Positions 60,378 through 60,653 of a DNA stretch of 64,000 nt are shown piece by piece. The notes beneath the pieces are model-generated. The model saw only the letters and a program-made list of their open reading frames with translations, was not told where the DNA came from and ran no database searches. The stretch is taken from positions 41,296 to 105,295 of the forward strand of contig CAYTFU010000002.1 of assembly GCA_964437185.1 (NCBI GenBank), in the 5' to 3' direction. The number at the start of each line of letters is the position of its first letter. Positions within the stretch are counted from its first letter, which is position 1. Made by a program: the position numbers and the translations under genes. The DNA is from an uncultured Candidatus Saccharibacteria bacterium. GTDB taxonomy: Bacteria > Patescibacteriota > Minisyncoccia > Phycocordibacterales > UBA2100.

Positions 60378-60653
60378 TTACGCAGGCAATTTAACTCCAC
60401 TCTTTTTTGCGATTAATTTTATCCATTCTTCGTGGCGACTTAGTTGAATCTTCACCGCAGCGTACTCCATCGTGAGCTCGCTGACGGCTTTCGCCAAATT
60501 ATCAATCGCCTTCATCACCTGTTCGAATCTTTCATCTATGCGTCTTTCGAGTTGGTCGATCCTACTGTTATCTGCCTTCGTAACTAAGGCATCGATAACC
60601 CGATCAAGCTTCGCATCCAGTTCCTTGAATCCTATTTCCTTTCTCCTGGTCAT
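60378..60653 (-). CDS. small coiled-coil protein, family member C, embedded in the atp operon
   Basis: 91 aa. [30 protein letters not shown] aligns with the ORF at 29807-30055. Its stop is 2 nt before the atpD ATG. Confidence 0.65.

What the first reader, a model, noticed from the sequence alone, without database searches (positions are those of the whole stretch)
60378..60653. Small coiled-coil gene wedged between atpG and atpD; member of a dispersed three-copy family
F-type ATP synthase operons are normally contiguous across atpA-atpG-atpD-atpC. Here a 91-aa ORF sits between atpG and atpD on the same strand, with its stop 2 nt before the atpD ATG, so it must be co-transcribed. Its C-terminal half ([42 protein letters not shown]) aligns closely with the 82-aa ORF at 29807-30055 (VDKLATSVDKLLLEYAAVSEQLTRHERWIKQIAKKSGVMLAD). 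The DNA is well diverged, with only about 12-nt identical runs, which implies purifying selection on the protein. A more distant relative lies at 53139-53426. The copy at 29807 is bracketed by a duplicated gene terminus, which hints at mobility. The function is unknown. Candidates, as speculation, are a selfish or addiction-like small gene, a regulator, or a structural coiled-coil adaptor.
Basis: partly seen in the sequence, partly recalled or inferred. Interest (0 to 1): 0.55.

Follow-up and report, generated by a model that had tools for sequence, protein, structure and literature searches.

The report
Accessory coiled-coil gene inside ATP operon
A real, conserved gene for a 91-residue single-helix protein sits just upstream of the ATP synthase beta gene in one group of Kaiserbacteria, but close relatives do without it, so it looks like an exchangeable passenger gene with its own promoter and not a new ATP synthase part.

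Summary
The ORF at 60378-60653 (-) is a real gene. It lies between atpG and atpD, and its stop is 2 nt before the atpD ATG. The ORF at 29807-30055 is a true paralogue (46% identity, E 3e-19). The ORF at 53139-53426 is not (hhalign probability 5.7%).

The protein is one long helix with heptad periodicity, a beta-layer-type T-K-x-D motif and a conserved C-terminal RHEEW...GVKL signature. Its family matches no Pfam, NCBIfam or PHROG model, yet has at least 582 sequence clusters, the named ones mostly from Patescibacteria.

Eighteen distinct members, counting the window, sit upstream of atpD, 16 of them within 10 nt. Where dS can be estimated, dN/dS is about 0.12-0.14. Three related atp loci lack the gene. 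Its tree disagrees with the atpD tree. Five copies are flanked by a duplicated end of a neighbouring gene that differs mainly at synonymous sites.

The genome has almost no Shine-Dalgarno sites. A perfect TATAAT lies 8 nt before the ORF's ATG, where relatives without the gene have the atpD promoter box.

Best reading: an accessory, recombination-exchanged small coiled-coil gene that is the first cistron of a probably leaderless atpD-atpC transcript. A role as an ATP synthase regulator stays possible (about 0.2). Its biochemical function is unknown.

The parts
60378..60653 (-). ORF-A, 91 aa: the small coiled-coil gene. It is the first cistron of the atpD-atpC unit.
   Evidence: ORF listing. An identical protein is called in 11 public contigs. 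25 homologues at 45-100% identity. dN/dS is 0.12-0.14 where dS can be estimated. The AF2 model is a single helix over residues 9-85, pLDDT 84.
60662..60667 (-). Perfect TATAAT -10 box, 8 nt upstream of the ORF-A ATG. Probable promoter of a leaderless or near-leaderless ORF-A-atpD-atpC transcript.
   Evidence: Sequence. Such boxes precede 18/71 genes of the window against 2.4% of random positions, while an SD core precedes 1/71. They precede 42/53 family members and 13/17 atp-linked ones. In relatives lacking the gene, the box sits directly before atpD.
60373..60380 (-). Stop-start junction TAA-at-ATG between ORF-A and atpD. Inferred translational coupling.
   Evidence: Sequence. The gap is -4 to +10 nt in 15 of the 17 atp-linked members found in other loci, and 2 nt here.
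60570..60587 (-). Residues 23-28, LVTKAD: a degenerate beta-layer motif. The family consensus is [LMF]-[AV]-T-[KH]-x-[DE].
   Evidence: Alignment A1. The motif definition [aliphatic]-A-T-K-[polar]-[DE] comes from PMC4786415. Weak profile hits to 7o92, 5apx and 5apz.
60387..60467 (-). Residues 63-89, [27 protein letters not shown]: the family's conserved C-terminal signature. It keeps the heptad register, with His74 in a core position.
   Evidence: Nearly invariant columns E63, Y64, Q70, L71, R73, H74, E75, W77, A82, G86 and L89. The signature is shared by stand-alone paralogues and by distant members.
60654..60702 (-). 49-nt spacer between the atpG stop and ORF-A. It holds the -10 box and an unused TAAGGAG (60700-60694), and has no terminator-like site.
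59002..60375 (-). atpD (F1 beta), the downstream coupled cistron.
   Evidence: PF00006 and related domains.
58749..59000 (-). atpC (epsilon), 83 aa, N-terminal domain only.
60703..61626 (-). atpG (gamma), the upstream neighbour.
29807..30055 (+). ORF-B, 82 aa: a stand-alone paralogue of the 'MLTxKDI...FATKED' type.
   Evidence: 46% identity to ORF-A, E 3e-19. Family HMM E 1.8e-34. An orthologue at 60% identity lies in the same HK-X-trpS-aspS synteny in L081.
29793..29798 (+). TAGAAT -10 box, immediately after the HK stop codon and 8 nt before the ORF-B ATG.
29705..29791 (+). Repeat copy R1: the functional 3' end of the histidine-kinase gene.
   Evidence: HATPase_c.
30088..30174 (+). Repeat copy R2: an orphan copy of the HK 3' end, 82% identical to R1. 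Its frame and stop are intact and its 3' half differs mostly at third codon positions. Read here as a recombination footprint.
   Evidence: The codon-by-codon comparison is read directly from those sequences.

Best explanation
ORF-A encodes a ~91-residue single-helix protein of an uncharacterised family. The family members that carry a source name are mostly from Patescibacteria.

Predicted build of the protein:
- A probably parallel, probably trimeric coiled coil.
- A beta-layer-type T-K-x-D motif near the N-terminus.
- A middle part of variable length.
- An invariant C-terminal RHEEW...GVKL signature, which presumably docks onto a partner common to the whole family.

Position and expression:
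- In one Kaiserbacteria subclade, a member of the family occupies the slot between the atpD promoter and the atpD start codon.
- It would therefore be the first cistron, translated without a leader, of an ORF-A-atpD-atpC transcript.
- atpD would then be translated by termination-reinitiation at the TAA-at-ATG junction.

Status of the gene:
- It is an accessory gene, dispensable for the ATP synthase.
- It is swapped among related genomes by recombination anchored in the highly conserved atpG and atpD flanks.
- It is not a core subunit.

Shown here: that the gene is real, the family, the conserved position, the promoter box, its absence in close relatives, the incongruent trees and the recombination footprints.

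Inferred: leaderless transcription, translational coupling, the trimeric state and passenger status. The biochemical role is unknown.
For: Gene and family:
- dN/dS is 0.12-0.14 where dS can be estimated, and dS is saturated elsewhere.
- 25 homologues of similar length were found by the word-indexed search. The exhaustive profile search found 582 clusters at E <= 1e-3.
- The AF2 model is a single helix over residues 9-85.
- The beta-layer motif is present.

Position:
- 17 distinct members besides the window lie upstream of atpD. In 15 of them the gap is -4 to +10 nt.
- The gene stays upstream of atpD when the operon is split (L004).
- It stays next to atpD when other genes are inserted between atpG and it (L007, L008, L010, L018, L022).

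Promoter grammar:
- An SD core precedes 1/71 genes. A -10 box lies 4-14 nt upstream of 18/71 genes, against 2.4% of random positions.
- Such a box precedes 42/53 family members.
- A perfect TATAAT lies 8 nt before ORF-A.
- In loci without the gene, the box directly precedes atpD.

Dispensable:
- L023, L024 and L025 lack the gene but have the same atp genes and the same short epsilon.
- These three lineages nest among carriers in the atpD tree.

Exchanged:
- The window and L013 have 93% identical atpD proteins but only 43% identical small proteins.
- Copies outside atp loci (L009, L015) nest inside the atp-linked groups.
- In L010 the first 14 atpD codons are duplicated upstream of the small gene, and all 4 differences are synonymous.
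- ORF-B, L016, L040 and L051 are flanked by duplicated 3' ends of the upstream gene.
- Flanking direct repeats occur in 11/47 family members against 6/248 control genes, p = 3e-6.
- The atpG-atpD gap also holds unrelated passengers: Ham1, NUDIX, small membrane proteins and acidic helical ORFs.
Against: - The same family always occupies the atpD-proximal slot, even when a different subtype replaces the previous one. Seventeen of the 55 distinct members sampled in other loci are atpD-linked. Such persistence is what a functional partnership with beta would also produce.
- The census was seeded with atp-type sequences, so the share of atp-linked copies is biased.
- No expression data exist. Leaderless initiation and coupling are inferred from sequence grammar only.
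- The trees are NJ trees on short alignments (242 columns for atpD, 79 for the small protein).
- The function of the protein is not identified. 'Passenger' therefore describes its evolutionary behaviour and is not a biochemical mechanism.
Confidence: 0.55

Rival explanations
1. The protein is a lineage-specific ATP synthase accessory factor. It could be an inhibitor or regulator acting like IF1, the epsilon C-terminal helices, the zeta subunit or AtpTheta. It could also be an assembly chaperone for beta, made in step with beta through translational coupling.
For: - The position directly 5' of atpD is conserved, with abutting stop and start codons, across lineages whose small proteins are only 39-78% identical.
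- It stays with atpD after an operon split.
- A small helical protein is the right kind of molecule. IF1 is a helical coiled-coil former of similar size (own knowledge).
- Epsilon here lacks its inhibitory C-terminal helices and delta is short.
- Known accessory regulators are often dispensable, so absence in some relatives is not fatal to this reading.
Against: - No similarity to any solved ATP synthase chain or inhibitor at E <= 10, nor to any ATP-synthase family in Pfam or NCBIfam.
- Three related atp loci lack it while keeping the same truncated epsilon, so it does not compensate for loss of the epsilon C-terminal domain.
- Beta is 93% identical between the window and L013 while the small proteins are 43% identical. 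That argues against co-evolution with beta.
- The most conserved part, the C-terminal signature, is shared with paralogues that sit next to unrelated genes.
- Unrelated genes share the same gap.
Confidence: 0.2
2. It is a selfish, entrenched hitch-hiker. The gene persists mainly because it sits between an essential gene and that gene's promoter. Only a precise deletion would be tolerated. The protein itself gives little benefit, or acts as an addiction factor.
For: - It lies exactly between the promoter box and the atpD ATG.
- It is abutted to neighbouring genes elsewhere too: the ORF-B promoter box starts right after the HK stop codon.
- The footprints of acquisition are the same as those around a HepT/MNT toxin-antitoxin cassette in this window.
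- Distant members lie next to recombinases and IS elements in L017 and L019.
Against: - Purifying selection is strong along the whole protein.
- ORF-B keeps its synteny in a relative whose neighbouring genes are only 54-65% identical.
- No partner gene recurs that could form a toxin-antitoxin pair.
- There is no transposase, integrase or terminal inverted repeat.
- The gene has been cleanly lost at least three times, so loss is not strongly prevented.
Confidence: 0.12
3. It is only an upstream 'leader' ORF. Its translation matters, by delivering ribosomes to atpD in a genome without Shine-Dalgarno sites, and the peptide product has no function.
For: The genome lacks SD sites. atpD has no promoter box or SD of its own here. 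The stop-start distance is -4 to +10 nt in most loci.
Against: - dN/dS is about 0.12-0.14 and conserved motifs span 91 residues.
- The same protein family exists as stand-alone genes with nothing coupled downstream.
- Relatives express atpD directly from the promoter box, without any leader ORF.
Confidence: 0.05

Closest known systems
Alpha/beta coiled coils with beta-layers (Thermosinus Tcar0761 / DUF3782-type stalks; the DUF1640 family, i.e. MCUR1 and CCDC90B). PMC4786415; PDB 5apz, 7o92, 6h9m.
   Same: - A small, all-helical protein with heptad periodicity.
- The motif [aliphatic]-A-T-K-[polar]-[DE] is exact in ORF-B (FATKED) and in many family members (MATKDD, MATKED).
- Some members expand by tandem repeats that carry the motif: L015 has 4 copies of MATKKDIADIRAE.
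- The best, though weak, PDB profile hits are to these constructs.
   Different: - No significant profile match to DUF3782 or DUF1640 in Pfam.
- No nuclease domain and no membrane anchor.
- The C-terminal RHEEW...GVKL signature is peculiar to this family.
- ORF-A itself has a degenerate motif, LVTKAD.
- The oligomeric state is untested.
Small helical ATP synthase regulators: mitochondrial IF1, the epsilon C-terminal domain, the alphaproteobacterial zeta subunit, cyanobacterial AtpTheta (own knowledge).
   Same: A small helical protein genetically tied to F1 genes. It is dispensable in some lineages. The organism lacks the epsilon C-terminal inhibitory helices.
   Different: - No sequence similarity.
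- Paralogues lie in unrelated contexts.
- It does not co-vary with beta.
- No biochemical evidence exists.
Phage Mu gp25 'releasin' (DUF2730, PF10805; PMC9239132).
   Same: Weak matches of several family members to the cytoplasmic helical part of the profile, aligned to its C-terminal end: ORF-B 19.3 bits, and P0065 24.9 bits against a cut-off of 24.9.
   Different: - The N-terminal transmembrane domain that is part of the DUF2730 definition is absent.
- There is no Mu-like phage or endolysin context.
- ORF-A does not match the profile at all.
- No hits in the phage collection beyond coiled-coil noise.
Orphan gene-end remnants left by homology-facilitated illegitimate recombination, as described for Vibrio cholerae T6SS effector and immunity arrays (PMC5361080; the mechanism is defined in PMC3240628).
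   Same: - An inserted gene is flanked by two copies of the neighbouring gene's terminus.
- The copies differ mainly at synonymous sites, as expected if one copy came from a diverged donor allele.
   Different: The mechanism is inferred from footprints only. The organisms are uncultured Patescibacteria. The cargo is a small coiled-coil gene, not an effector-immunity pair.
Genomes dominated by leaderless transcripts, with a promoter box a few nt upstream of the start codon (GeneMarkS-2 'group C'-type grammar; own knowledge).
   Same: A -10 box lies 4-16 nt upstream of the ATG and there is no SD site, both for this gene and for 79% of its family.
   Different: Not verified by transcript 5'-end mapping. 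I found no paper describing this for Patescibacteria.

Membership tests
F-type ATP synthase subunit or known accessory factor (epsilon C-terminal domain, IF1, zeta, AtpI, Atp11/12) | Detectable sequence or profile similarity to a known subunit or inhibitor | tested here: not met
   No ATP-synthase family in Pfam, NCBIfam or PHROGs. No ATP synthase chain among the PDB profile hits at E <= 10.
F-type ATP synthase subunit or known accessory factor | Present wherever the clade's atp operon is present | tested here: not met
   Absent from L023, L024 and L025, which have otherwise the same atp genes. These loci nest among carriers in the atpD tree.
F-type ATP synthase subunit or known accessory factor | Physical association with F1 or Fo, or an effect on activity | not testable with these tools
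   Needs purification, cryo-EM or multimer modelling.
Beta-layer (alpha/beta) trimeric coiled coils | Motif [aliphatic]-A-T-K-[polar]-[DE] embedded in heptad repeats | tested here: met
   ORF-B has FATKED and many members have MATKDD or MATKED. ORF-A has the degenerate LVTKAD. The motif definition is from PMC4786415.
Beta-layer (alpha/beta) trimeric coiled coils | Trimeric parallel assembly with a beta-layer at the motif | not testable with these tools
   The AF2 monomer gives one continuous helix. Beta-branched residues at d positions (V67, I81) favour a trimer over a dimer, which is an inference from known coiled-coil rules.
DUF3782 / DUF1640 (Pfam) | Profile match above the gathering score | tested here: not met
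   Neither family appears among the listed hits for 33 members scanned.
DUF2730 / Mu gp25 releasin | N-terminal transmembrane domain followed by a cytoplasmic helical domain, with a score above the cut-off | tested here: not met
   No hydrophobic N-terminal segment; the N-terminus is basic or polar. ORF-A has no hit. ORF-B scores 19.3 bits against a cut-off of 24.9. One member reaches exactly 24.9.
Transposable element or integron cassette | Transposase or integrase, terminal inverted repeats or attC, and a short target-site duplication | tested here: not met
   No such gene lies next to the Patescibacteria copies. Only one weak 14-nt inverted repeat was found near ORF-B. The flanking repeats are 26-95 nt long and, where they are coding, are allelic gene ends.
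Toxin-antitoxin or addiction module | A conserved two-gene module with a recurring partner | tested here: not met
   No recurring neighbour family among 38 loci outside the atp operon. There is one family member per locus.
Leaderless first cistron | A -10 promoter box a few nt upstream of the start codon, and no SD site | tested here: met
   TATAAT lies 8 nt upstream. Genome-wide and family-wide statistics agree.
Leaderless first cistron | The transcript 5' end maps at or next to the start codon | not testable with these tools
   Needs 5'-end RNA sequencing of a Kaiserbacteria-containing community.

The most novel reading that the evidence does not exclude
The small protein is a previously unknown regulator or cap of the minimal ATP synthase of these Patescibacteria, which has an epsilon without its inhibitory helices and a shortened delta. 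For example, it could be a threefold-symmetric coiled coil that docks on the alpha3-beta3 head through its three C-terminal motifs, or an IF1-like plug. It would then control whether the enzyme makes or burns ATP in organisms thought to lack a respiratory chain.
Probability: 0.15. Interest if true: 0.8.

Novelty: new member of a known kind. Interest (0 to 1): 0.42.

Why it matters
- If the passenger reading holds, this is a clean example of how genes are organised and exchanged in ultra-small uncultured bacteria. Transcription units appear to begin at promoter boxes a few bases before the start codon. Small accessory genes slot in between a promoter and an essential gene. The gap between two highly conserved ATP synthase genes acts as an exchange site for accessory genes.
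- It also defines a sizeable family of small coiled-coil proteins that no library names, at least 582 sequence clusters, and gives it a testable structural prediction.
- If the minority reading holds, it would be a new regulator of ATP synthase in organisms whose energy metabolism is an open question.

Tried and rejected
- Pfam, NCBIfam and PHROG scans of 23 + 10 family members gave only sub-threshold coiled-coil noise: HSBP1, DUF16, CdvA, DUF2730 and others.
- A PDB profile search gave nothing significant. The best hit was E 0.026, to a beta-layer construct.
- tblastn of a long family member against 50,697 phage genomes gave only central coiled-coil matches at E >= 0.01.
- Source names for 10 members were uninformative: 'hypothetical protein', and one JGI 'archaellum component FlaC' label that is probably a coiled-coil artefact.
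- An Rfam scan of the whole window found no RNA family.
- The third copy at 53139-53426 was rejected as a family member.
- A diversity-generating retroelement (variable and template repeats around a small accessory gene) was considered for the ORF-B repeats and rejected. The mismatches are not adenine-specific, no reverse transcriptase is nearby, and the target is a histidine-kinase ATPase domain (read).
- The idea that the protein compensates for the missing epsilon C-terminal domain was rejected as a specific link. All 120 closest epsilon homologues are 79-92 aa, and the three relatives checked that lack the small gene have an 81-83-aa epsilon too.
- Neighbour clustering of 182 flanking proteins from 38 loci outside the atp operon found no recurring partner beyond local synteny.
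- Multimer modelling was not attempted, because the structure tool takes single chains from the window or earlier hits only.
- Literature searches for Kaiserbacteria plus ATP synthase, and for leaderless plus Patescibacteria, found nothing on this gene.

Full report
**1. What is in the window**

On the minus strand the F1 part of an F-type ATP synthase operon reads as follows:
- atpH, 63268-63654
- atpA, 61693-63264
- atpG, 60703-61626
- a 91-aa ORF, 60378-60653 ('ORF-A')
- atpD, 59002-60375
- atpC, 58749-59000

The ORF-A stop is TAA at 60380-60378. It is followed by 'at' and then the atpD ATG at 60375-60373.

An identical 91-aa protein is called on 11 public contigs, and the named relatives are Candidatus Kaiserbacteria, which belong to the Patescibacteria or CPR. 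No Rfam family matches anywhere in the window.

**2. Paralogues**

ORF-B (29807-30055, +, 82 aa) is a true paralogue. It shares 35 of 76 residues with ORF-A, E 3e-19, and tblastn finds no further copy in the window.

The proposed third copy, 53139-53426, is not a member:
- BLASTP gives E = 2.
- The family HMMs score it 6-10 bits, no better than an unrelated ORF.
- It has its own 15-member family. The profile-profile comparison with the ORF-A/B family gives probability 5.7% and aligns only around a shared T-K-x-D motif.

**3. The gene is real and belongs to a large, unnamed family**

- A word-indexed search found 25 homologues of 90-122 aa at 45-100% identity.
- An exhaustive profile search found 582 clusters at E <= 1e-3 and 128 at E <= 1e-10, with lengths of 57-262 aa.
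- Between orthologues dS is saturated. Where it can be estimated, dN/dS is 0.12-0.14.
- No Pfam, NCBIfam or PHROG model reaches its threshold.
- No solved structure matches significantly, and no phage genome does.

**4. Anatomy of the protein**

AlphaFold2 with the family alignment gives one continuous helix over residues 9-85, mean pLDDT 84. The alignment shows three parts.

*N-terminal module.*
- In the atp-linked type it is a basic tail followed by LDxKLDRVID.
- In the stand-alone type it begins MLTDKDI.
- It ends in [LMF]-[AV]-T-[KH]-x-[DE].
- ORF-B has FATKED, which fits the published beta-layer consensus [aliphatic]-A-T-K-[polar]-[DE] for trimeric alpha/beta coiled coils (PMC4786415).
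- ORF-A has the degenerate LVTKAD.
- The best, weak PDB hits are to exactly those constructs: 7o92, 5apx and 5apz.

*Middle part.*
- Its length varies, and in some members it expands by tandem repeats that carry the motif. L015 has 4 copies of MATKKDIADIRAE and L014 has 2 copies of an 11-residue unit.

*C-terminal signature.*
- The sequence is [28 protein letters not shown]. It is nearly invariant and is shared by every subtype.
- It continues the heptad register, with His74 at a core position and beta-branched residues at d positions.
- I infer a parallel trimeric coiled coil with a common docking end. This is not tested.

**5. The position next to atpD is conserved**

I searched one genome per GTDB species and the JGI metagenomes, then removed duplicates. 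That left 55 distinct family members in other loci.

Seventeen of them, plus the window, lie upstream of atpD. In 15 of the 17 the stop-to-start gap is -4 to +10 nt.

| Arrangement | Loci |
|---|---|
| Other genes lie between atpG and the small gene, which still abuts atpD | L007, L008, L010, L018, L022 |
| Operon split; the small gene stays upstream of atpD-atpC, 443 nt away | L004 |
| A 123-aa ORF separates the small gene from atpD | L012 |

**6. The gene is dispensable and is exchanged**

Three related atp loci lack it:
- L023: atpG-atpD with a 49-nt gap.
- L024: atpG, a 120-aa ORF, Ham1, then atpD.
- L025: a split operon.

In an atpD NJ tree these three nest among carriers. All 120 closest epsilon homologues are 79-92 aa with only the N-terminal domain. 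The three loci without the small gene have an 81-83-aa epsilon too. The small gene therefore does not specifically stand in for the missing epsilon helices.

The small-gene tree disagrees with the atpD tree:
- The window and L013 have 93% identical beta proteins but 43% identical small proteins, of different subtypes. The window and L007 have 91% and 78%.
- Copies outside atp loci, L009 (after alaS) and L015, nest inside the atp-linked groups.

**7. Footprints of acquisition**

| Locus | Repeat | What is duplicated |
|---|---|---|
| Window, ORF-B | 87 nt, 82% | 3' end of the histidine-kinase gene |
| L010 | 42 nt, 90% | First 14 codons of atpD, copied upstream of the small gene |
| L016 | 95 nt, 99% | recA 3' end, bracketing a membrane-protein gene plus the small gene |
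| L040 | 39 nt | rnc 3' end |
| L051 | 52 nt | 3' end of a 966-aa gene |

- In the ORF-B remnant the frame and stop are kept. In its 3' half, 8 of 10 differences are at third codon positions, and 7 of these are silent. I read this.
- In L010 all four differences are synonymous third-position changes.
- Flanking direct repeats occur in 11 of 47 family members against 6 of 248 control genes, odds ratio 12, p = 3e-6.
- The synonymous pattern means that each pair of copies evolved as coding sequence in different lineages. One copy therefore arrived with donor DNA.
- This fits recombination with homology at one end and an illegitimate join at the other. PMC3240628 defines that mechanism, and PMC5361080 shows similar orphan remnants in Vibrio.
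- The same footprint brackets a HepT/MNT toxin-antitoxin plus GNAT block elsewhere in this window.
- ORF-B itself is nevertheless old. L081 has a 60% identical orthologue in the same HK-X-trpS-aspS synteny, with neighbouring genes 54-65% identical.

**8. Expression grammar**

- In this window an SD core precedes 1 of 71 predicted genes. The rate at random positions is 7.8%.
- A box with at least 5 of 6 matches to TATAAT lies 4-14 nt upstream of 18 of 71 genes. The rate at random positions is 2.4%.
- ORF-A has a perfect TATAAT at 60667-60662, 8 nt before its ATG.
- ORF-B has TAGAAT 8 nt before its ATG, starting right after the HK stop codon.
- Across the family, 42 of 53 members have such a box, including 13 of 17 atp-linked ones.
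- In relatives that lack the small gene, or in which it is separated from atpD, the box sits directly before atpD: L023, L024, L025 and L004.
- No terminator-like site lies between atpG and ORF-A.

I infer that ORF-A is the first cistron, translated without a leader, of an ORF-A-atpD-atpC transcript. That transcript would add to read-through from upstream. I also infer that atpD is translated by reinitiation at the abutting stop and start codons. Neither point is shown experimentally.

**9. Weighing the explanations**

*For a functional tie to ATP synthase.* The atpD-proximal slot is always filled by this family, even after a subtype swap.

*Against such a tie.*
- Closely related loci lack the gene.
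- The small protein does not co-vary with beta.
- The most conserved motif is shared with paralogues elsewhere.
- The same gap carries unrelated passengers: Ham1, NUDIX, small membrane proteins and acidic helical ORFs.
- There is no similarity to any known subunit or inhibitor.

*My weighting.*

| Explanation | Weight |
|---|---|
| Accessory coiled-coil gene lodged in, and exchanged through, a recombination-prone gap between two highly conserved genes | 0.55 |
| ATP synthase regulator or assembly factor | 0.20 |
| Purely selfish entrenchment | 0.12 |
| Leader ORF whose product has no function | 0.05 |

The biochemical role of the family remains unknown. The anatomy suggests a trimeric stalk with a common docking end.

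**10. Novelty and interest**

- The structural type (a beta-layer coiled coil), the recombination footprints and leaderless gene starts are all known kinds of thing.
- What is new is the family itself, its conserved slot in front of atpD, and the variable island inside an ATP synthase operon of uncultured bacteria.
- The literature searches found no description of them.
- I rate this as a new member of a known kind, of moderate interest.

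Noticed in passing
window 24168-24206 and 25786-25824 (block 24260-25608): A 39-nt direct repeat, 97% identical, duplicates the 3' end of gene 23728-24216 on the far side of an inserted block. 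The block holds MNT nucleotidyltransferase (PF18765), HepT RNase (PF01934) and a GNAT acetyltransferase. The last codons of the two copies differ only synonymously: GCG CGG AGT TAA against GCA AGA AGC TGA. This is the same acquisition footprint as around ORF-B.
   Followed up: partly
atpG-atpD gap in L007, L008, L010, L018, L022, L024, L027, L030, L033, L034, L047 (window equivalent 60376-60702): In Kaiserbacteria relatives the gap between atpG and atpD is a variable island. It holds mostly unrelated accessory genes: acidic helical ORFs of 114-142 aa, Ham1/ITPase in three loci, small membrane proteins and a NUDIX hydrolase. This is unusual for an F1 operon.
   Followed up: partly
window 58749-59000 (atpC) and 63268-63654 (atpH): Epsilon is 83 aa, with the N-terminal beta-sandwich only. 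All 120 closest homologues listed are 79-92 aa and also lack the C-terminal inhibitory helices. Delta is 128 aa and matches only positions 55-168 of the 172-position OSCP profile. This looks like a pared-down ATP synthase.
   Followed up: partly
whole window (71 predicted genes): Shine-Dalgarno cores are almost absent, preceding 1 of 71 genes. TATAAT-like boxes lie 4-14 nt before 25% of start codons, ten times the random rate. This suggests that leaderless transcripts are the norm in this genome.
   Followed up: partly
window 53139-53426 (-): This is a separate small helical gene. Its true start is probably the Met at residue 10, giving 86 aa. It has its own 15-member family, with the motifs ELPTKNDVERI and AVDKDAE...H.KRI. 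Three homologues carry weak DUF2730 hits. It is not related to ORF-A/B by profile comparison, but it shares the T-K-x-D motif.
   Followed up: yes
L015 358-584; L014 6055-6120: Family members lengthen by in-frame tandem repeats that carry the beta-layer motif: 4 x 39 nt encoding MATKKDIADIRAE, and 2 x 33 nt. The coiled-coil stalk length is therefore evolvable.
   Followed up: no
L019 6007-6159 (Bacteroidales chromosome OY782677.1) and L017 5992-6324 (MAG labelled Rhizobium sp.): Family members or fragments occur outside Patescibacteria, next to serine recombinases and IS elements (an IS21 IstB-like protein and an IS1595-like transposase, identified by eye from the translations). The L019 copy is only the C-terminal half.
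   Followed up: no
window 60694-60700 (-): A perfect TAAGGAG lies 2 nt after the atpG stop codon and 40 nt upstream of the ORF-A ATG. That is too far to serve as a ribosome-binding site in a genome that otherwise lacks such sites. It could be chance or a relic.
   Followed up: no
L058 7414-7549 and 8110-8245: A 136-nt direct repeat, 86% identical, brackets an unrelated 119-aa gene in a relative. It is another likely example of the same insertion footprint.
   Followed up: no
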